Origin: Patescibacteria group bacterium
GTDB taxonomy: Bacteria; Patescibacteriota; Minisyncoccia; Phycocordibacterales; UBA12079
Direction of reading: 5' to 3'
Assembly: GCA_018817595.1 (NCBI GenBank)
Contig: JAHITU010000024.1
Coordinates: forward strand, 11,155 to 75,154
DNA: 64,000 nucleotides
Shown here: positions 689-48,285 of the stretch, in pieces
How positions within the stretch are numbered: position 1 is the first letter of the stretch
How the letters are laid out: each line of letters opens with the position of its first letter
The notes under the pieces: generated by a model
The model's database searches: none
Told to the model about the DNA's origin: nothing
What the model saw: only the letters and a program-made list of their open reading frames with translations
Program-made: the position numbers and the translations under genes

Positions 689-1921
689 TCAAACAAAAAC
701 AACCTCCCTCTCCAACCTCAATCCTGTTTTTTCAAAAACATCTTTTTCTATTTTTTGGGCTAATTTTTTGACTTCTTCACAAGTTCCTTCACCTTTATTC
801 ACCAACATCAAGGCATGTTTGTTATAAACTCCCACTTCCCCTTCAAAAAATCCTTTCCATTCAAATTGGTCAATAAACCAGGCAATAGGAATTTTAATAT
901 TTTCTCCATCTTCAAAGAAAGGTGTTTCGGGAAATTTTTCTTTTAATTTTTCAAATTCATTTTTAGAGATAATCGGGTTTTTAAAAAAGCACCCAGCCGA
1001 TCCTAAACCTTCACTCAAGGGATAATTCTTCCCTCGAATTTCTATAATCTTTTTTCGAACATCTTTTACCTTTAAATCTTTTTTATTTTTTAAATCCTCT
1101 AAACCTTTGTAACCTAGGTTAGCTTTTCTGGACTGCTTCGTCGTTCCGCTTCGCTCCACTCCTCGCAGAGACGATTGTGGAGCAATCGTTACGGACGAGG
1201 CTTCGCCTCGTTCGTCTTCACTAGATAACCTACCAATAAATTGAGACGGATTTTTCTTCGAAAAATCCGTTGGCGAAAAGCTTTGTTTTTCGTCTTCGCG
1301 AGCGCAAGCGAAGCGATCCAGTGTTTCATCATCTAAAATTCTTAGTCTCAAAGCAACCCGAACAACCACCCAATTCGGTTCTTTTTTAAAAACAGAATTC
1401 CTATAACCGAATTCACATTCTTTATTGAGAAGCCTTTTCATCTCTCCATTTTCCATATCAAACACCTCCACCCAATCAACCACATCTTTCATTTCCACTC
1501 CAAAAGCTCCACAATTTTGCACAACTCCCGCTCCCACAGTCCCTGGAATCCAAGACAAACTTTCCAAACCCCACAGATTTTTTTTAGCCATTTTGTAAGC
1601 CAAATCATCCAAAAGCATCCCTGCCCCCACCACAACCTCCACAAGATCATCACTTAGTACTCCGACTACTAAGTCCTTATTTTCTATTTTTAGGACCAGA
1701 CCGTCGAAGCCATTATCTGAAATTAAAAGATTAGAACCTCCTCCTAAAATAAAAACAGGGAGTGAATTTTGTTTAGCAAAATTCACTCCCTCTTTTAAAT
1801 CTTCAATATCTTTAACTACTCCAAAATACTTAGCCTCTCCACCTATCTTAAAGGTGGTATATGGGGCTAATTTAATTTTTTCTTTTATTTCCATAATTTT
1901 TTTATTAACTTGGTTACTCAA
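689..1921 (-). CDS. murB: UDP-N-acetylenolpyruvoylglucosamine reductase MurB, carrying an in-frame insertion of about 70 aa
   Basis: N-terminal FAD-binding region (ILGGGSNLLISDNGFDGLVLKI), central WGLE..IPGTVGAG..QNCGAFG, and C-terminal GSAGCFFKNP are MurB hallmarks. At 410 aa it is longer than the typical 300-345 aa. The extra segment maps to a GC-rich repeat at 1127-1322. Confidence 0.8.
   Translation of the reverse strand: MSNQVNKKIMEIKEKIKLAPYTTFKIGGEAKYFGVVKDIEDLKEGVNFAKQNSLPVFILGGGSNLLISDNGFDGLVLKIENKDLVVGVLSDDLVEVVVGAGMLLDDLAYKMAKKNLWGLESLSWIPGTVGAGVVQNCGAFGVEMKDVVDWVEVFDMENGEMKRLLNKECEFGYRNSVFKKEPNWVVVRVALRLRILDDETLDRFACAREDEKQSFSPTDFSKKNPSQFIGRLSSEDERGEASSVTIAPQSSLRGVERSGTTKQSRKANLGYKGLEDLKNKKDLKVKDVRKKIIEIRGKNYPLSEGLGSAGCFFKNPIISKNEFEKLKEKFPETPFFEDGENIKIPIAWFIDQFEWKGFFEGEVGVYNKHALMLVNKGEGTCEEVKKLAQKIEKDVFEKTGLRLEREVVFV
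1127..1322. repeat. GC-rich composite palindromic repeat (TCTGGACTGCTTCG...CGAAGCGATCCAG termini) embedded in frame in murB
   Basis: This stretch is about 55-60% GC in a roughly 30% GC background. It shares terminal motifs (ctggactgcttcg / cgaagc..tccag) and internal motifs (cctcgcagagacg, gacgaggcttcgcctcg) with copies at 10906-11030, 21003-21128, 47334-47457 and 51375-51478. Confidence 0.6.
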
Positions 1922-1924
1922 AAT

Positions 1925-4102
1925 TTATAATGATCCATTTTGGATAGCTTTAATAAATCCTTCCCCTTGTTCTTTAAAATTAGGATCCAACTCAATGGCA
2001 ATTTTTAATTGATTAATAGCATCAAGATTTCTCCCCACTTCATAATAAGCGGCAGCTAAAGTGATATAAGACTGAGGATCATCTGGTTTAAATGCCAGCA
2101 TTTTTTCAGCTACTAAAACCATTTCATCAAAGTGCCTTGTATTTTTATAAGCATTTAAAAAGTTACTATCAGCAACAATTTCTCCTGACAATAAATCATC
2201 AACCAAAGCATCTTCCCCTGCATAAATAGCTCCCAAAGCATATAATTGTCTCGCTCTGTCATAATCTGTTTCTAACTCATAAGCTATTTTAAAAGAAGAC
2301 AAAGCCTCTCTATATTTCCCTTGATTAAGATTAGCCAAACCGATTTCAAAATAAATTGATTGCTTATTCGGTGATAATTCCAAGGCTTTTTCTAATTGAA
2401 CAGAAGCCCCATCATAAATACCAAAATTATTAAAGAATGAGGCAGCTAACATTCTATTTCGGGTATTTTCAGGATCTCTTTCTATTTCTTTTAAAACTTC
2501 ATCTCTCGATAATTCAAAAAAGTTATTAGTTATAGTTTGATCAACTCCAAAGCCTTTTACTTTGACTGCAAACATCATTAATTGTTCTCTTATTTCTTGG
2601 TTAGCAAAAGAATCATAAGACAAAGCCTTTTCAAAATGTTCTAAATTTTTAGACAAGCCCCCTTCTTGAGGACTCAAACCTTGCAACAAAGACCTATTAG
2701 CTAGAACCCCATTAACATTAAAAAAATAAAGAGAGGCAATAACCAGAAGAGCAATTACAGGAATACCGACACTATTCTTCTTTTCTTCATCTATTTTGTC
2801 CAGAATACATTCTCTTCGTGATTCCCCTAAGCCAACAGAACTATGAATAAACGCCAAGATAGCAAAGAAGAAAATGTAGCTGGTAATATTATCAAATACA
2901 AATAAATTATGTACAAAATACCCAACCAACAACCCTGTAAAAATACTTTTTTCTAAAATAGAAAAATCATTTCCGTGTTTCTTATTCCACAAATAATACA
3001 AAACGAAAACAAATAGCGATAAATAAGCAATCAACCCCAAGAAACCTCCAACAATCAACCAATCCATAAACACATTGTGAGTCCTATCAAACCACTCTTC
3101 CTGACCATACATTTTAGGAGTGTAATACTTATTAAAAACATAATTAAAGTTTTCTTGTCCCCAACCTAAAAGAGGCCTCTCTTTAGCTCCTTGCCATGCC
3201 ATATTCCAAATCATAAACCTAGATTTAGTGGTTTGTTCCTGCAAAGAAATAGAAGCAAAGCGATTCAGCACCTGAGACTCCCTAACAAAAGCAGTGTCTT
3301 TCAACGCAATAAATCCTCCAATAAATAAAACAGTTAACAGCAAAAGTCCGCCACAAAACTTTTTCAATTTAATATTTTCTTTTTCAAACAAAGCCACCAA
3401 GAAAGAAATTAACAAAGTCGCCCCAAAAAATCCTAAAATAGCTCCTCGAGTAGCTGTATGATAAAGAATAATAATATTAAGTATTATTGTCATTCCGTAA
3501 AATATTCCCATTGAATCTTTCCAGTTATAACGGCGTAACCATAAAAACAAAGCAATAAAAATATGAATCACAGAATAAATAGCCAAATAAGATGCATTTC
3601 CAAAAGTAGTATCCAGACGAGTGATCCCCTGTACCGCAGTAGCCCAACCCAATAATTGAAATATTCCATAAAGGCTAATCCACAAACTAACACCCAAAGA
3701 AATATTAAAAAACTTGTTCCATAATTTTTTAGTGTTTAACATCCCCACCAAAACAATGAAATATCCCAGTAGATGCAACAAGGTTACCCAACCTTCCATC
3801 CTTTCATAATTAGACCAAAAACTCTTTAACGGGTTTACCCCAAAAATATCAGCAAAAAACATTATCCCCACCAGTGATATCACCCCTCCTAAAATCCAAG
3901 AAAATTTTGGTCTGTATTCCTTATTAAACAAAGCCAAGATAGCCCATCCTCCGACGGCCATTTCTACCAATACTCTGAATAAAATGTTCTTTCCTACAAT
4001 ATAAGGAAAAAACATCGATGAACAAACCACCAAAGGAATAAAAGGAATAATAAAAATTAGGAATAATACAATATTTTTTAAAATTTTTTCATATTTAAAC
4101 AT
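1925..4102 (-). CDS. Polytopic membrane protein: O-antigen ligase/polymerase-like N-terminal domain fused to C-terminal TPR repeats
   Basis: About 12 hydrophobic helices over the first roughly 430 aa, followed by repeated A..Y.....LG..Y...G...EA TPR-like units. Confidence 0.5.
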   Translation of the reverse strand: MFKYEKILKNIVLFLIFIIPFIPLVVCSSMFFPYIVGKNILFRVLVEMAVGGWAILALFNKEYRPKFSWILGGVISLVGIMFFADIFGVNPLKSFWSNYERMEGWVTLLHLLGYFIVLVGMLNTKKLWNKFFNISLGVSLWISLYGIFQLLGWATAVQGITRLDTTFGNASYLAIYSVIHIFIALFLWLRRYNWKDSMGIFYGMTIILNIIILYHTATRGAILGFFGATLLISFLVALFEKENIKLKKFCGGLLLLTVLFIGGFIALKDTAFVRESQVLNRFASISLQEQTTKSRFMIWNMAWQGAKERPLLGWGQENFNYVFNKYYTPKMYGQEEWFDRTHNVFMDWLIVGGFLGLIAYLSLFVFVLYYLWNKKHGNDFSILEKSIFTGLLVGYFVHNLFVFDNITSYIFFFAILAFIHSSVGLGESRRECILDKIDEEKKNSVGIPVIALLVIASLYFFNVNGVLANRSLLQGLSPQEGGLSKNLEHFEKALSYDSFANQEIREQLMMFAVKVKGFGVDQTITNNFFELSRDEVLKEIERDPENTRNRMLAASFFNNFGIYDGASVQLEKALELSPNKQSIYFEIGLANLNQGKYREALSSFKIAYELETDYDRARQLYALGAIYAGEDALVDDLLSGEIVADSNFLNAYKNTRHFDEMVLVAEKMLAFKPDDPQSYITLAAAYYEVGRNLDAINQLKIAIELDPNFKEQGEGFIKAIQNGSL

Positions 4103-4560: not shown

Positions 4561-5034
4561 TTAGAAGTGATCTTCAGCATTTATCAATTTGTAATCCGGT
4601 TTTTCATAATCAAACAATTCACTTTCTTCAAAGAATCTTTTTATTTCAATTTCAGCATTTTCAGCAGAATCAGAAGCGTGAACTAAATTTGATTGCCCAC
4701 TCATAGAGTAATCCCCTCTAATGGATCCAGCATCAGCCTCATGTCCTTTAGTTGGTCCTACAATTAATCTTGTAGCAGAAATTGCATTTACTCCACCTAA
4801 GGCAATAAGCACAACAGGAGAAGCTTGCATATAATTTTTTAAGGTATTAAAAAATGGTTTTTCCACTAAATGACTGTAATGTTCTTCAATTAAAACATCT
4901 GAAATTTTTGTCATTTTAACTCCAATAATTTTCAAACCTTTTCTTTCAAATCTTTGCAGGATTTCTCCAAACAAGGATCTTTGGATAGCATCTGGTTTCA
5001 TTATAATTAATGTCTTTTCTTCTTTTGGATTCAT
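4561..5034 (-). CDS. ndk: Nucleoside diphosphate kinase
   Basis: EKTLIIMKPDAIQR..GEILQRFE..G..IIG..M...YMQASPVVLIALGGVNAI...GPT...A..GSIRGDY NDK motifs. 157 aa. Confidence 0.9.
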   Translation of the reverse strand: MNPKEEKTLIIMKPDAIQRSLFGEILQRFERKGLKIIGVKMTKISDVLIEEHYSHLVEKPFFNTLKNYMQASPVVLIALGGVNAISATRLIVGPTKGHEADAGSIRGDYSMSGQSNLVHASDSAENAEIEIKRFFEESELFDYEKPDYKLINAEDHF

Positions 5035-5106
5035 ATAAATTTTTTTTAATTATTAATTCCATTTATTATACCGAAAAACCTAAAAAATAATAGACTCCTA
5101 TTAAAA

Positions 5107-5850
5107 TTACTTCTTTTTAAGGTGAATAAGATATTCTTTATTTCCCTCTAATCCTTTTATCGAAGATTCTATAACCTCTAAAGGAATGAGGTTTTCTTTT
5201 ATCGATAATGTTTTAATTTTATTTATTACTTCGTTGTGTAAATCTGAGTCATAGACAAAACCCTTTTGAATTAAGTCTTTTCCCACTTCAAATTGAGGTT
5301 TGATTAATACCACAGCCTCACCACTTTTTTTTAATAATTCATTTATTTTAGGTAAGATATGTTCGAGAGAAATAAAAGAAACATCAACAGTAATAAAATC
5401 AATAGGTTCACTAAATAATTCTTTTGATGTCTCACGAATATTTTGACCTTCTATAGAAACCACTCTAATGTCATCAAGTAATGATTCTGCTAATTGATTA
5501 TGACCAACATCCAGAGCATAAACCTTTTTAGCTCCATTATGTAGTAGAACTTCTGTAAACCCTCCAGTAGAAGAACCAATATCAAGACATACCAAATTAT
5601 CAACATCAATAGACCAAACTTCTAAAGCTTTTTCCAATTTTAAGCCAGCACGAGAAACCCAATTAATATCTTTAGATATCATTTCTAAATTTACACCTAA
5701 AGGATATTTAGCAGAAATTTTAGTAACAACATTTCCATCAATTAATACTCCTCCAGACTCGATTAAATTTTTTGCACGCTGGCGTGATTGAGCATAACCG
5801 AGCTTTACTAATAACGAATCTAATCTTATCAATTCATTTTTCTCATCCAT
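5107..5850 (-). CDS. tlyA: TlyA-family rRNA 2'-O-methyltransferase (S4 domain plus FtsJ-like methyltransferase domain)
   Basis: N-terminal S4 RNA-binding motif (RLDSLLVKLGYAQSRQRAKNLIESGGVLIDG), then the SAM-binding DIGSSTGGFTEVLL motif and a methyltransferase fold. Confidence 0.8.
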   Translation of the reverse strand: MDEKNELIRLDSLLVKLGYAQSRQRAKNLIESGGVLIDGNVVTKISAKYPLGVNLEMISKDINWVSRAGLKLEKALEVWSIDVDNLVCLDIGSSTGGFTEVLLHNGAKKVYALDVGHNQLAESLLDDIRVVSIEGQNIRETSKELFSEPIDFITVDVSFISLEHILPKINELLKKSGEAVVLIKPQFEVGKDLIQKGFVYDSDLHNEVINKIKTLSIKENLIPLEVIESSIKGLEGNKEYLIHLKKK

Positions 5851-28699: not shown

Positions 28700-29454
28700 A
28701 TTTTTTTTCTAAAAAATTAAAACTAATAATGAATTATTATCATATCCCCAAGACTTAATTGAATGGTCAAAGAAAATCAACCACCAAGAAATCTCATTGG
28801 TTTTATGATTTTACGACCTTTATTTTAGTATCTAAAAATACCATAACTATATAATATCATTATATGAAATGAAAAATATATGAAAACTGTGGATAAAATG
28901 ATGTCGGCTCAAAACAAAAGAAATCTTTGCTGAAAAACTTTTTCCTTCGGAACAACTTAAAGACATCCGACCTCATTTTTTATAATATTAAAATTAATAT
29001 CTAAAGATGACAGTTGTTTTAATTAAGAGGTCGGATGTCACCCAAACCACTCCCAGTGGGTCGGGTGAAATTTTTTCATAACTAAAGTAAAGAACAGTAA
29101 TTGTTTTGTTAAAAGTTTTAATGCTTGTATTTTATTTAGGTTTAACTTTTTTAAGGGATGGAAGAAGACGAAAAGCTTTAGCTTTTCGTCCACGAATTTT
29201 GCTTCGCAAAATTCGTCTTTACGAGAAATGAAGCGTAGCGAAATGACGAAGTAATCCAGAAATAAACAAAAAAGATAAACCTCAGTCTTACTTTTTCACT
29301 AAAAGTTTTAATGCAAGGATTTCTTTTATTTTAAACCTTAGTAGGGTGACGGGCGAGGCTTCGCCTCGCCCGTCTATAAATAAAAAAATCAACGGCTATG
29401 CTCGTAGCCATTGATTTTTTGTTTATTTTTTTAACTTTACAGACTTTAAACTTA

Positions 29455-29490
29455 CCTGCCCACGCCTGCCGGCGCGCAGGGGCAGGCGGG
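29455..29490. repeat. Extended GC palindrome CCTGCCCACGCCTGCCGGCGCGCAGGGGCAGGCGGG
   Basis: Near-identical copy at 34105-34144. Reverse-orientation copy at 42171-42216. Confidence 0.6.
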
Positions 29491-32439: not shown

Positions 32440-32856
32440 TCAAAAATAAAGATCAACAGGCTTCCTTTTTTCAAAAAGGGATTCATTTGATGAATGCTTT
32501 TTCAAAAGCTTCTTTAGAACATACCCGAGATCTTCAGCAAATTCACTTTCTTTTCCAAAAAGGATTTGTATTTGTTCTGAAGACAAATTCATTTCTTTAA
32601 AAACATCCCATGATGTTTTCTCAACAGACAATGATACCCAAACCAAAAACTCAGCAATTTCTTCTGAAGAATTTAAAAAAATATCTATTTTATTCCAGAA
32701 AACAGAGCATCCCATTCGTCCAGTATTTTCCCAAATAGTTGCTGCTAAATACTCCGGTTTGTATTCACCCCTCAAGAAACCTTTTTCCAAATCAATGGAT
32801 TTAGGAATGCTATTACTCCCAGCTCTGGGAATAAAAACTACAACATTTTCATTCAT
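32440..32856 (-). CDS. Hypothetical protein (138 aa)
   Basis: ORF only; no recognisable motifs. Confidence 0.35.
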   Translation of the reverse strand: MNENVVVFIPRAGSNSIPKSIDLEKGFLRGEYKPEYLAATIWENTGRMGCSVFWNKIDIFLNSSEEIAEFLVWVSLSVEKTSWDVFKEMNLSSEQIQILFGKESEFAEDLGYVLKKLLKKHSSNESLFEKRKPVDLYF

Positions 32857-33078
32857 TTTTATATTCCTTTAAATAATTTAAAGTTAACTACCTCAGGTCA
32901 ATATACCAAAACAAATCCATTAGTCAATAAAGAACCTTGTGCATTCAAACTCATACCCCACCCCGTCTCCGCGAGACAATATTTCTTATTAAGAAATATT
33001 GTCTCGCGGTCCATTTCTAAAATCTCACAACAAAAAATCACTTGGAAGTTGAACTTCCAAGTGATTTTTTGTTTACAT

Positions 33079-33504
33079 TTATTGATTAACAGTTGCTATT
33101 TGTGTTTCATTTATTTCGGCAATATCTTTTTCCATTCTTTCAATCATTCTTCCTACTTCTCGTAAAACAATATCCAATCTCTGTAATTCAGGACTATGAG
33201 GAGCTTCTGGATTTGCGCTTGAAATCCCTACTAAATCATCATAGGTAACTCCTTTGTTTACAGTTCCAGAGTTTGAACCTATCCCTTTATTTTGAATCTC
33301 TGTTACATTAGCTTTAATTCTATCTTTTAAATCTCCTGAGTCTGAAACTATCTCAGAAGTCCCGTCTTCATTCAAAAGACCTTCTTCATTTGAAATACTA
33401 GCTTCTTCATAACGATTAAAACCAATCATTACAATAGCAGCTAAAATAAAACCAGTTAATAGACCTGTTAAATATTTTTGATCTTTAATTAGATTCTTTT
33501 CCAT
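33079..33504 (-). CDS. Hypothetical membrane-anchored protein (141 aa)
   Basis: Single N-terminal TM helix (LTGLLTGFILAAIVMIGF). Confidence 0.35.
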   Translation of the reverse strand: MEKNLIKDQKYLTGLLTGFILAAIVMIGFNRYEEASISNEEGLLNEDGTSEIVSDSGDLKDRIKANVTEIQNKGIGSNSGTVNKGVTYDDLVGISSANPEAPHSPELQRLDIVLREVGRMIERMEKDIAEINETQIATVNQ

Positions 33505-33612
33505 ATTTTTGTATAAAAATTAATAATTACTATTCTATTAGTATAGTAATCTCCTGTATAAAGTCAATGGATTTTCGTTATTTTAAATAAATATAAATTT
33601 TCTAACAAACCC

Positions 33613-33888
33613 TTGCAAAAAACCGAAATATAAATATAATAGTCATCAGCAGTTCAAGAGAGGCTGATGGTCCAGCAAAAGGCGAGGTCCGAATCTCGGG
33701 GACAATACTCCCTTTAAACTCTCTTTTTCTTCGATCAAGACAAGTCTGGTTGCCGAGGTCATTCCCTAAAATGACTGACGGTCTCCAAAGGCACCCCGCA
33801 ACAATAGTGGTGTCTACATCGCAATCAAACCATCTTGATCAAATCCCTCTTGGATACCTTTTCACGGTATCCTAGAGGGATTTTTTTT
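33613..33888 (+). ncRNA. Candidate small RNA 1: promoter TTGCAA-N16-TATAAT (33613-33640), about 240-nt transcript, terminator 33845-33888
   Basis: Good -35/-10 match. GC-enriched structured body (ggctgatggtcc..gaggtccgaatctcgggg). Ends with a 14-bp interrupted stem ccctcttggatacc/ggtatcctagaggg followed by T8. Stop codons in all frames. Confidence 0.45.
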
Positions 33889-34207
33889 ATCTATTTTCTT
33901 ATTTTTCAAAGGACGAAGCCTCGCTTCGTCCTTCTTCTTCACCCTAAAAAGTTAAACCCAAATAAAATACAGACATTAAAATTTTTAATGAAGAGTTACT
34001 GTCTTTTGCTTTAGCAAAAGGAAAATTTCACCCGACCCATACTCCCACAACAAAGAATATTTGTATAATATGGTTTTTAAAATGGTTGGGCTTGGGTTTG
34101 GATCCTGCCTGCCCACGCCTGCCGGCGCGCAGGGGTAGGCAGGTTTAAAAACATATTATACAAATATTCTAACAACTCATTTTATCCACAACTTCTTTTA
34201 AAATTTC

Positions 34208-34500
34208 TTGACTTTTATTTAAATATATTATATCCTTATATTTAGAAATAAAGGTAAATACAATTTCCGGGAGAATAGATGAAAAGGATTTATAGTACCT
34301 TTTCACAACAACAACTTTATAATTTCTCCCAAATGACCTCTCCTTTAGAGTCTTTCCTCTTCGGGAGTAAATGCATTCGAAAATGTTTTCATGAGAACAT
34401 TTTCATGTATAAGGAATTATAGCCAATTCCTTGTATAGCTGAATAGGTCATAATACCCCCAAAGATGTCTGGTGAACATCATGCGGGGGTATTTTATTTT
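34208..34500 (+). ncRNA. Candidate small RNA 2: TTGACT -35 at 34208-34213, a structured body of about 250 nt, terminator 34453-34500
   Basis: Internal hairpins gaaaatgtt/aacattttc and tataaggaatt/aattccttgtata. Terminator ataccccc...gggggtat followed by a T-rich tract. Confidence 0.35.
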
Positions 34501-34547
34501 ATGTTATTTAGTAATTTAAATTTATATTAATTAATTTTTAAAAATCC

Positions 34548-47526: not shown

Positions 47527-48285
47527 TTATTCACTAATCAATGAATATCGGCTCCATCTTCTCTCCCCTTCCTTGTTCAAAAGTTTGTCTTTTAACATTG
47601 ATTGTAATTCTCTTTGGATTGTTTTTTCACTGCAGTCTGAAATTGTCTTTGATATGTCCTTTATAGTTAGTTTTTGTCCTTTAGATAAAATTTCAATGAT
47701 TTTATCACGACGAGATATTTTCTTTTCGTTATTTGTAATCTTATCTGTTTTTGTCTTTTTTGAATCAAAAACATTATGTCCTTTATATTTAAACTGTCCT
47801 TTATCCTCGTTAATGTCTTTTACGGAATTTAAGACATCTTCAATTTCTTTCGGGCGTAAAGATTTGTCTTTAACTTTAAAATAATCCCCTCCTAAATATG
47901 GGGAAAGTTGGTTATTTATTTTAATAGAATTATTTTTTATTAAAGACAAAAGTAAATCAAATTCTCTCTTTAAAACCTCATGATTATCTTCTGAAATTAA
48001 ATTAGTAGCAGAAGCTAATTCTAAAAAGGACAAGATTTCAAAAATCTGAAAAGATATAGTTGAGAAGATTTTAAATTTATCCGAGAAAGAATCATCATTT
48101 AATTTCATAACTTCTGAAAATAGATTTACTGCTTTTTTCCGAACTTCCCATTTTAATGGTTCTTTTTCCTTCAAGTAATCAGTAATTAAATACAAAGCAG
48201 AAACAATCTTCTCTGTTTTTTTAATAAAGAAGGTTAAATATAGGTCATTATTATATCTTTTATTTATAATATCTAATGAATTCAT
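47527..48285 (-). CDS. Hypothetical protein with a C-terminal winged-helix DNA-binding domain
   Basis: C-terminus DKIIEILSKGQKLTIKDISKTISDCSEKTIQRELQSMLKDKLLNKEGERRWSRYSL is typical of wHTH regulator tails. Confidence 0.4.
   Translation of the reverse strand: MNSLDIINKRYNNDLYLTFFIKKTEKIVSALYLITDYLKEKEPLKWEVRKKAVNLFSEVMKLNDDSFSDKFKIFSTISFQIFEILSFLELASATNLISEDNHEVLKREFDLLLSLIKNNSIKINNQLSPYLGGDYFKVKDKSLRPKEIEDVLNSVKDINEDKGQFKYKGHNVFDSKKTKTDKITNNEKKISRRDKIIEILSKGQKLTIKDISKTISDCSEKTIQRELQSMLKDKLLNKEGERRWSRYSLISE

What the first reader, a model, noticed from the sequence alone, without database searches (positions are those of the whole stretch)
33613..33888. Candidate sRNA 1 has the best promoter and terminator of the cluster
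TTGCAA-16-TATAAT, then about 240 nt containing ggctgatggtccagcaaaaggcgaggtccgaatctcgggg, ending in the two-tier stem ccctct-t-ggatacc/ggtatcc-t-agaggg plus T8. The size is compatible with a Gram-positive-type SRP RNA or a 6S RNA, but the conserved SRP domain-IV sequence (GGUCCGGAAGGAAGCAGC) is only partially matched (GAGGUCCGAAUCUCGG).
Basis: seen in the sequence. Interest (0 to 1): 0.5.

Follow-up and report, generated by a model that had tools for sequence, protein, structure and literature searches.

The report
Orphan structured small RNA in Paceibacterota

Summary
A TTGCAA-16-TATAAT promoter (33613-33640) is followed by about 240 nt, the two-tier hairpin and T8 (33841-33888).

The window comes from a Patescibacteria/Paceibacterota genome. 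The RNA lies in a 1.65-kb gene-free island between a 141-aa membrane protein gene and a 1332-aa surface protein gene, near rplJ-rplL.

Homologues exist in two other species. L023-L028 are 80% identical. L029 is recognised by a covariance model built from the window sequence alone (E=2e-5). Promoter, terminator and fold are all kept.

The fold has a sequence-conserved 5' three-way junction and a 3' three-way junction whose sequence diverges while its helices are kept. Thirteen pairs carry changes on both sides, against 4.9±1.7 in shuffles.

No Rfam family matches any of the three copies, even at E≤10, so SRP, 6S, RNase P, tmRNA and riboswitches are unsupported. The architecture also contradicts SRP and 6S. 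No conserved ORF or downstream gene is present.

Nothing matched in phage, plasmid, viral or JGI metagenome collections, apart from re-finding the L023 species.

Verdict: a new, lineage-restricted structured sRNA in a mosaic, fast-turnover "sRNA island". The mechanism is inferred only, probably loop-mediated trans action. Interest is moderate.

The parts
33613..33640 (+). Sigma-70-type promoter: -35 TTGCAA (33613-33618), 16-nt spacer, -10 TATAAT (33635-33640). Predicted transcription start near 33648.
   Evidence: scores it 10 of 12. The promoter and its whole spacer are conserved in L023 (TTGCTA-16-TATAAT) and in L029 (TTGCAA-16-TATTAT).
33648..33888 (+). Predicted sRNA1 transcript, about 241 nt.
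   Evidence: Homologues are L023:3594-3821(-) and L029:~870-1087(-).
33656..33725 (+). 5' domain, a three-way junction.
- P1: AAGAGAG 33656-33662 with CUCUCUU 33719-33725.
- P2: GCUG 33663-33666 with CAGC 33673-33676, loop AUGGUC.
- P3a: 33678-33686 with 33708-33715.
- P3b: GUCC 33687-33690 with GGAC 33700-33703, loop GAAUCUCGG.
This is the most sequence-conserved part.
   Evidence: 50 columns of the 87-column alignment of the 5' 85 nt (33648-33732) are invariant across three species. Each homologue gives the same fold as its own minimum-energy structure. Compensatory changes occur in P1, P2, P3a and P3b. Model R2 scores 77-111 bits on the three copies and nothing else.
33733..33840 (+). 3' domain.
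- P5, closing stem: GAUCAAGA 33733-33740 with UCUUGAUC 33833-33840.
- P6.
- Three-way junction carrying P7 (base CCG/CGG, distal GGUCAUU/AAUGACU, loop CCCUAA) and P8 (AGGCACC/GGUGUCU).
   Evidence: The sequence is too diverged in L029 for MAFFT to align. All three still fold on their own into the same stem plus three-way junction. P5 has 4 of 8 pairs changed on both sides, and P6 has 3.
33841..33888 (+). Intrinsic terminator: two-tier hairpin (CCCUCU-U-GGAUACC / GGUAUCC-U-AGAGGG) followed by U8.
   Evidence: I9. Equivalent hairpins with different stem sequences and a U-run are present in L023 and L029.
33908..33933 (+). GC-rich hairpin (GGACGAAGC-CUC-GCUUCGUCC) just downstream of the terminator. 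Whether it belongs to the transcript is uncertain.
   Evidence: Nearly identical in L023, with one change in the loop. Absent in L029.

Best explanation
sRNA1 is a genuine stand-alone gene for a structured non-coding RNA of about 235-240 nt. It is specific to a narrow Paceibacterota (CPR) lineage.

Shown or directly supported:
- It has its own sigma-70-type promoter and an intrinsic terminator.
- It folds into two autonomous three-way-junction domains.
- The 5' domain is conserved in sequence: loops AUGG.., ..CUCG.., the junction GAC-A-A, and both strands of P1 and P3a.
- The 3' domain keeps only its helices and an apical C-rich loop, CCCUAA.

Inferred mechanism:
- It acts in trans.
- The 5' junction is the recognition module.
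- The exposed, conserved hairpin loops (AUGGUC, CUCG, CCCUAA) make loop-mediated contacts with a partner.

My split among mechanisms is roughly 45% a base-pairing or kissing-loop regulator of other RNAs, 35% a protein-binding or RNP scaffold, and 20% something else.

It is one of several unrelated sRNA genes in a mosaic 'sRNA island' between the p141 and p1332 genes. It is not SRP, 6S, RNase P, tmRNA or a riboswitch.
For: Genome identity: Patescibacteria/Paceibacterota (L10 and L7/L12; relatives).

Homologues: L023-L028 are 80% identical over 288 nt. L029 is found by a covariance model built from the window sequence alone (26.5 bits, E=2e-5) and by the 5'-domain model, of which L029 was itself a training row (77 bits).

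Promoter and terminator are conserved in all three species.

Fold: each homologue, folded alone, gives the same architecture.

Covariation:
- 94% of cells are paired.
- 13 pairs have changes on both sides, against 4.9±1.7 in shuffles (0 of 500 reach the observed value).
- Slid controls give at most 2.

Strand: the body has z=-2.67 on the + strand and -0.76 on the - strand.

Constraint: identity between the window and L023 is 80-86%, against 61% at four-fold degenerate sites of flanking genes (50% in p1332).

Coding: the window carries a 1-nt deletion relative to L023 and L029 just after the only conserved AUG. The resulting ORFs are 16, 34 and 33 codons, without protein-level conservation (and reading of the sequence).

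Context: in L029 the RNA is followed directly by the convergent p1332 gene, so no downstream gene can be regulated in cis.

Loop motif: the hexamer CCCUAA caps hairpins with unrelated stems, P7 in the window and L023 and P8 in L029.
Against: - Only three species carry it, and one is 80% identical, so the covariation statistics rest on very few independent events.
- The alignment used for counting was fitted to a structure derived from the window sequence.
- P2 is not maintained in L029, and P8 is partly deleted in L023.
- Without the terminator the thermodynamic signal is modest (z=-2.67).
- There are no expression data.
- No target or partner has been identified. UUAGGG sites in the window occur at chance frequency.
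- The RNA is absent from close relatives that keep the same flanking genes: L002, L003, L004, L035 and L039. It is therefore dispensable.
Confidence: 0.65

Rival explanations
1. It is a highly divergent housekeeping RNA, either SRP RNA (with or without an Alu domain) or 6S RNA.
For: The size (about 240 nt) is compatible. A short resemblance exists between GAGGUCCGAAUCUCGG and the SRP domain IV sequence. CPR housekeeping RNAs can be divergent (own knowledge).
Against: - No SRP, 6S, RNase P or tmRNA hit at E<=10 in any of the three homologues.
- There is no 5'/3' end pairing, no GNRA-capped helix 8 with symmetric and asymmetric loops, and no rod with a central bubble.
- The 'domain IV-like' stretch is not conserved in L029.
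- The gene is absent from close relatives with the same synteny: L002, L003, L004 and L039. An essential RNA would not show that pattern at this locus.
Confidence: 0.03
2. It is an mRNA for a small protein starting at the invariant AUG (33667), possibly a dual-function RNA or a type I toxin-like transcript.
For: The AUG(G) is invariant in all three species. L023 and L029 have ORFs of 34 and 33 codons in the same frame. Type I toxin mRNAs are similarly sized, highly structured and clustered (own knowledge).
Against: - The window has a 1-nt deletion after codon 6, giving a different 16-aa product.
- Similarity between the L023 and L029 peptides is only what in-frame nucleotide conservation would give.
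- The peptides are hydrophilic and have no transmembrane helix.
- Substitutions are paired across helices rather than concentrated at third codon positions.
- Genuine start codons in this genome sit in A/T-rich, unstructured leaders. This AUG sits in a hairpin loop.
Confidence: 0.06
3. It is a cis-regulatory leader, a riboswitch or attenuator, whose terminator controls a downstream gene.
For: It has a structured 5' region followed by an intrinsic terminator, which is a typical riboswitch layout.
Against: - No + strand ORF follows it. In the window and in L023 the next features are other promoter-terminator RNA units.
- In L029 the next gene is convergent.
- No Rfam riboswitch or leader match.
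- No alternative antiterminator pairing is evident.
Confidence: 0.03
4. It is a non-functional or selfish remnant, for example the regulatory RNA of a decayed mobile element. Its conservation would then reflect recent shared ancestry and the island's recombination rather than a cellular function.
For: - The island content is mosaic and patchy across species.
- L004 has only 100 nt at this site.
- A MITE-like repeat has inserted right next to the RNA.
- A Y1 transposase ORF lies 7 kb away.
Against: - Helices are maintained by compensatory changes out to L029, whose 3' domain sequence can no longer be aligned.
- Promoter and terminator are kept in all three species.
- No similarity to phage, plasmid or viral collections.
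- No terminal repeats or associated mobility gene flank the unit.
Confidence: 0.12

Closest known systems
Bacterial SRP RNA (4.5S / Bacillus-type scRNA; Rfam RF00169, RF01854)
   Same: Similar size to the Bacillus-type form. Stand-alone RNA gene with its own promoter and terminator. A short GGUCCG-like string.
   Different: No covariance-model match. No helix 8 with a GNRA loop and conserved internal loops. No pairing of the 5' and 3' ends. Not conserved across close relatives.
6S RNA (Rfam RF00013)
   Same: Stand-alone, abundant-type sRNA gene of about 200 nt that acts through structure rather than coding.
   Different: 6S is a single long irregular rod with a central open-promoter-like bubble. 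sRNA1 has two separate three-way junctions and gives no model match.
Firmicute-type base-pairing sRNAs with C-rich apical loops (RsaE/RoxS, RNAIII hairpins). This comparison is from my own knowledge and is a lead only.
   Same: Independent promoter and intrinsic terminator. Multiple hairpins. A conserved C-rich loop motif (CCCUAA / UCCC) on otherwise variable stems.
   Different: - No sequence or model similarity.
- This genome has no Shine-Dalgarno sequences to target.
- sRNA1 is larger, and its most conserved part is a folded junction rather than a single-stranded seed.
Orphan structured ncRNAs found by comparative genomics (for example the raiA motif RNA and others from Weinberg et al. 2017, PMC5737381)
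   Same: About 200-nt multi-junction RNA, transcribed on its own, supported by covariation, with no known function.
   Different: No match to any of these Rfam families. Much narrower distribution, three species so far. Located in a variable multi-sRNA island.

Membership tests
SRP RNA (bacterial small or large) | Match to the Rfam SRP covariance models | tested here: not met
   No hit at gathering score. No hit at E<=10 on the window, L023 or L029 copies.
SRP RNA (bacterial small or large) | Helix 8 (domain IV): GNRA tetraloop with conserved symmetric and asymmetric internal loops, at the end of a helix-5 rod closed by the 5' and 3' ends | tested here: not met
   The candidate stretch forms a 4-5 bp hairpin with a 7-9 nt loop, and its sequence varies in L029. 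The ends are not paired, and there are two separate domains.
6S RNA | Rfam 6S model match, and a long rod with a large central bubble and a closing stem formed by the two ends | tested here: not met
   No hit at E<=10. The predicted and covarying fold consists of two three-way junctions.
tmRNA / tRNA-like RNA | tRNA-like domain with acceptor stem and T-arm; tag reading frame | tested here: not met
   ARAGORN finds no tRNA or tmRNA in the window. No Rfam tmRNA hit.
RNase P RNA | P4 helix with conserved regions CR-I and CR-V; Rfam model match | tested here: not met
   No hit at E<=10. At 240 nt it is shorter than known bacterial P RNAs (own knowledge).
Riboswitch / cis-regulatory leader | Located upstream of, and co-oriented with, a regulated gene | tested here: not met
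   No + strand ORF follows it. In L029 the next gene is convergent.
Small-protein or type I toxin mRNA | ORF conserved in frame and in amino-acid sequence (hydrophobic peptide for type I toxins) | tested here: not met
   The frame is broken by a 1-nt indel in the window. The products are 16, 34 and 33 aa, and they are hydrophilic.
Stand-alone bacterial sRNA gene (trans-acting ncRNA) | Own promoter and intrinsic terminator, conserved between species | tested here: met
Stand-alone bacterial sRNA gene (trans-acting ncRNA) | Conserved secondary structure supported by compensatory changes | tested here: met
   13 pairs with changes on both sides against 4.9±1.7 in shuffles, and 94% of cells paired. 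The three sequences fold alike on their own. Caveat: only three sequences.
Stand-alone bacterial sRNA gene (trans-acting ncRNA) | Detected transcript and an identified target or partner | not testable with these tools
   No transcriptome data are available, and only 64 kb of the genome is in hand.

The most novel reading that the evidence does not exclude
The p141-p1332 intergenic locus may be a dedicated, rapidly reshuffled 'sRNA island' of this CPR lineage, whose structured RNAs work together.

One example of such an interaction: the P2 loop of sRNA1 (AUGGUCC) is exactly complementary to GGACCAU. On the + strand of the whole 64-kb window that heptamer occurs only in sRNA3 and sRNA4.

The island could control the adjacent giant surface or adhesin gene, or host interaction. 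Alternatively, sRNA1 could be the RNA subunit of a so far unknown RNP or ribozyme specific to these episymbionts.
Probability: 0.12. Interest if true: 0.7.

Novelty: new member of a known kind. Interest (0 to 1): 0.4.

Why it matters
Non-coding RNA biology of the Candidate Phyla Radiation is almost unexplored, and these genomes are about 1 Mb with little spare DNA. A 1.65-kb gene-free stretch packed with conserved promoter-terminator RNA units is therefore unlikely to be junk.

sRNA1 is one of those units, and it has covariation support. If confirmed, it adds a new structured RNA family. It also points to a locus where sRNA genes are gained, lost and shuffled between close relatives, next to a very large surface protein gene.

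In practical terms, the result removes a false SRP/6S lead.

Tried and rejected
- **Known RNA families.** SRP, 6S, RNase P, tmRNA, T-box, riboswitch and ribozyme identities found no support in Rfam at gathering score or at E<=10 on all three homologues, nor in ARAGORN.
- **Hammerhead.** The CUGAUGG string lacks the invariant CUGANGA core and varies between homologues.
- **DGR template RNA.** The weak Avd hit at 47527-48285 led nowhere. The neighbouring genes are FtsK, RecA and EF-P, and sRNA1 has no repeat elsewhere in the window.
- **Coding.** Rejected because the reading frame is broken in the window.
- **Shine-Dalgarno sequestration or targeting.** Rejected because this genome has no Shine-Dalgarno motifs upstream of 47 ORFs.
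- **Target search.** UUAGGG sites, the complement of the CCCUAA loop, occur at chance frequency.
- **Paralogy with sRNA3/sRNA4.** I suspected that the sRNA1 3' domain was a paralogue of sRNA3 or sRNA4 (shared GGCAC hairpin, ACCAU, CCCUCU terminator). This is not supported. Model R1 with filters off gives less than 8 bits. Local alignment gives z=0 for the cores, and only the terminator tails are alike.
- **Intramolecular pseudoknot** between AUGGU and ACCAU: not conserved in L023 or L029 (reading).
- **Wider homologue searches.**
  - A genome-contig scan with L10 gave 21 relatives, none with the RNA.
  - A metagenome pattern scan re-found only the L023 species plus one false positive.
  - The viral pattern scan, the phage blastn of the island and the plasmid blastn of sRNA1 found nothing.
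  - A protein search with the p1332 C-terminus returned only distant hits and was not useful.
  - A profile search with p141 gave further syntenic loci (L039, L043, L044) that lack sRNA1.

Full report
**1. The observation**

- The -35 TTGCAA is at 33613-33618, the spacer is 16 nt, and the -10 TATAAT is at 33635-33640.
- The quoted 40-mer is at 33662-33701.
- The two-tier hairpin CCCTCT-T-GGATACC / GGTATCC-T-AGAGGG has arms at 33841-33858 and 33866-33883, 94% complementary with a 7-nt loop (I9).
- T8 follows at 33881-33888.

The consensus scan ranks this promoter 10 of 12. That score ties for the best in 32500-36000 and is the only one at that level on the + strand. Promoter-like sites as such are not enriched in this AT-rich DNA (20 found, 16.1±4.1 expected), so the promoter is not evidence on its own.

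The full transcript folds at -86.3 kcal/mol with z=-5.76. The terminator contributes a large part of that. The body alone (33648-33840) gives z=-2.67 on the + strand and -0.76 on the - strand.

**2. Genomic setting**

The window has about 31% G+C and no tRNA genes. It encodes ribosomal proteins L10 (31636-32127, -), L7/L12 (31028-31519, -) and S3, as well as FtsK, RecA and EF-P. The closest L10 genes in the genome collection all come from Patescibacteria/Paceibacterota MAGs, so this is a CPR bacterial chromosome and not a phage.

sRNA1 lies at one end of a 1,647-nt stretch (33505-35151) with no ORF longer than 59 aa. The stretch is flanked by two genes:
- a 141-aa membrane protein gene (p141, 33079-33504, -), transcribed divergently from a back-to-back promoter;
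- the 3' end of a 1332-aa surface protein gene with LTD, fn3 and beta-helix domains (p1332, 35152-39150, -).

Several other promoter-terminator units sit on the + strand of this stretch.

**3. Known families**

Rfam 15 gives no hit at gathering thresholds anywhere in the window. At E<=10 with permissive filters there is no SRP, 6S, RNase P, tmRNA, riboswitch or ribozyme hit on 33400-36000. The same holds for the RNA alone in the window, in L023 and in L029. The few weak hits are terminator look-alikes and differ between the three copies.

There is no similarity in the phage collection (blastn of the whole island 33500-35200) or in the plasmid collection (blastn of sRNA1). A pattern scan of viral contigs found nothing.

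**4. Homologues**

The syntenic interval in the closest GTDB representatives lacks the RNA:
- L004 has only 100 nt between the two genes.
- L003 has 965 nt with different content.
- L002 has a p1332 remnant.

Searching the protein collection with p141 and fetching the encoding contigs gave a species (L023-L028, p141 67% identical) with a gap of about 1,650 nt, the same size as in the window. That gap aligns with the window over most of its length. sRNA1 is 80% identical there over 288 nt, including the promoter with its spacer and the terminator.

A third species (L029, p141 50% identical) carries a more divergent copy at the other end of its island, next to the convergent p1332 gene. A covariance model built from the window sequence alone finds that copy at 26.5 bits, E=2e-5. 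The model finds nothing else in 303 kb of related loci or in the rest of the window. A 5'-domain model built from all three copies scores 77-111 bits on those copies, and its next best hit is 15 bits.

Further syntenic loci obtained with a p141 profile (L039, L043, L044, L035) do not contain the RNA. A degenerate pattern scan of JGI metagenome contigs re-found only the L023 species plus one false positive. With these data the family is confined to three species.

**5. Structure**

Folded separately, the three homologues give the same architecture.

The 5' domain has these elements:
- P1 (AAGAGAG/CUCUCUU) encloses the domain.
- P2 is a small hairpin with loop AUGGUC. It is present in the window and L023 but not maintained in L029.
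- A two-part hairpin follows: P3a, then P3b with loop GAAUCUCGG.

This region is well conserved in sequence. Fifty columns of the 87-column alignment of the 5' 85 nt (33648-33732) are invariant across the three species, including AUGG, CUCG and GAC-A-A.

The 3' domain has these elements:
- P5 is a 7-8 bp closing stem.
- P6 leads to a three-way junction that carries P7 and P8.
- P7 is a long hairpin with a CCG/CGG base.
- P8 is a shorter hairpin.

MAFFT cannot align this domain between the window and L029, yet all its helices persist. P5, for example, reads GAUCAAGA/UCUUGAUC in the window, GGUCAAGA/UCUUGACC in L023 and GGCCGAA/UUCGGCC in L029.

On the model-made alignment:
- 94% of cells form standard pairs.
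- 13 of 56 pairs have changes on both sides, against 4.9±1.7 in shuffles (0 of 500 reach the observed value).
- The slid controls give at most 2.

There are three caveats. Only three sequences are available. The alignment was fitted to the structure. The structure was derived from one of the sequences. The independent single-sequence folds reduce that concern but do not remove it.

The hexamer CCCUAA caps P7 in the window and L023 and caps P8 in L029, on unrelated stems. That suggests selection on the loop itself.

**6. Constraint**

Identity between the window and L023 is 80-86% across sRNA1. Four-fold degenerate sites of flanking genes average 61%: 50% in p1332 and 75-80% in p141 (79%) and the r-protein genes L10 and L12 (80%, 75%). 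This amounts to modest evidence of purifying selection.

**7. Not coding, not cis-regulatory**

The only conserved AUG (33667) opens ORFs of 16, 34 and 33 codons in the three species. The window carries a 1-nt deletion after codon 6, the peptides are hydrophilic, and the substitutions are paired across helices. Real start codons in this genome are preceded by A/T-rich leaders without Shine-Dalgarno motifs, and this AUG sits in a hairpin loop.

No co-oriented gene follows the terminator. In L029 the next gene is convergent.

**8. What it most likely is and does**

Shown:
- a conserved transcription unit for a structured RNA;
- two autonomous junction domains;
- a sequence-conserved 5' domain and a shape-conserved 3' domain;
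- a narrow, patchy distribution;
- no membership in any Rfam family.

Inferred: it acts in trans through its conserved exposed loops and its 5' junction. That could be as a loop-mediated base-pairing regulator or as a protein-binding scaffold. I cannot separate these two models with the data available.

One lead is the P2 loop AUGGUCC. It is the exact complement of GGACCAU, which on the + strand of the whole 64-kb window occurs only at 34719 (sRNA3) and 34898 (sRNA4). The pair is also present in L023. The test case L029, whose loop reads AUGGAUC, is blocked by an assembly gap.

**9. The island**

Aligning the island between the window and L023 shows that the other units and their promoters are conserved too. 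The sRNA3 core recurs in L003 with covarying hairpins.

An all-against-all comparison of the interval in ten loci shows a mosaic:
- sRNA1 is in three species.
- A second family is in L035 and L039.
- A third family is in L029 and L039.
- A fourth family is in L003, L043 and L044.
- L004 has nothing.

A small ORF is present in the L003 and L029 islands but not in the window. The interval is therefore a hotspot where unrelated sRNA genes come and go. In the window a MITE-like repeat has also inserted next to sRNA1.

I tested whether sRNA1 is related to the other units and found no support.

**10. Verdict**

The sRNA call is supported and the SRP/6S suggestion is rejected.

sRNA1 is a new, lineage-restricted structured small RNA of unknown function, which makes it a new member of a known kind. 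Interest is moderate, because the family is narrow and the mechanism is only inferred. It is raised somewhat by the CPR setting and by the unusual multi-sRNA island.

Noticed in passing
window 34585-34772 (+); L023 ~2820-2965 (-); L003 ~4995-5125 (-): 'sRNA3' is a second promoter-terminator unit. Its core (AAGAGGAG...CGCCCGU...AACCAUCGAC...GGCAC/GUGCC...CACGGACCAUCCCCUCUU) is conserved in L023 and L003, with hairpins that change sequence but stay paired. No Rfam match. In L003 it directly follows an 81-aa ORF.
   Followed up: partly
window 34208-34500 (+) and 34777-34980 (+): Two further candidate sRNA units.
- sRNA2: the promoter TTGACT-17-TATCCT and the 3' part, including a CCCCC/GGGGG terminator, are almost identical in L023. 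Its 47-aa ORF is not conserved.
- sRNA4: it shares ACGGACCAU and a similar terminator with sRNA3.
   Followed up: partly
window 33505-35151 compared with L003, L004, L029, L035, L039, L043, L044: The p141-p1332 intergenic interval ranges from 100 nt to about 1,670 nt. It holds a mosaic of at least four or five unrelated sRNA-like families with patchy distribution between close relatives, so it behaves as a turnover hotspot for non-coding genes.
   Followed up: partly
window 33925-34170; copies at 29057-29172 (-), 29445-29490, 42182-42221: A repeated, MITE-like element lies here. It has a 27-nt inverted repeat (34054-34080 / 34144-34170) around a GC-rich core, plus a 116-nt segment repeated elsewhere in the window. 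It is absent from the orthologous site in L023. A Y1 (IS200-like) transposase ORF at 40604-41371 could be its mobiliser.
   Followed up: partly
window, 30 nt upstream of 47 ORFs: No Shine-Dalgarno motifs appear anywhere. The leaders are A/T-rich, and several ribosomal-protein genes are preceded by repeated AUAAGCUAAUAA / AAAUAACUAAAUAACUAAA-type motifs. This suggests translation initiation that does not depend on Shine-Dalgarno pairing.
   Followed up: no
window 34719 and 34898 (+) versus 33667-33673: GGACCAU, the exact complement of the sRNA1 P2 loop AUGGUCC, occurs on the + strand of the 64-kb window only inside sRNA3 and sRNA4. The complementary pair is also present in L023.
   Followed up: partly
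window 33908-33933 (+): A GC-rich 9-bp hairpin (GGACGAAGC-CUC-GCUUCGUCC) lies just after the sRNA1 terminator. It is nearly identical in L023. Its role is unknown; it could be a second terminator or a protein-binding site.
   Followed up: no
window 35040-35089; 35110-35156: An ACGTACGTACGT-containing palindrome is conserved in L023. A perfect 23-bp A/T-rich palindrome at the end of p1332 is probably a bidirectional terminator; it produced the spurious mir-553 hit.
   Followed up: no
L003 5126-5368 (-); L029 1255-1425 (-); L032: A small conserved ORF of 57-81 aa, with the motif (M/W)(V/M)I(I/V)DP(I/F)TR, lies inside the island of some relatives. It is absent from the window and from L023.
   Followed up: partly
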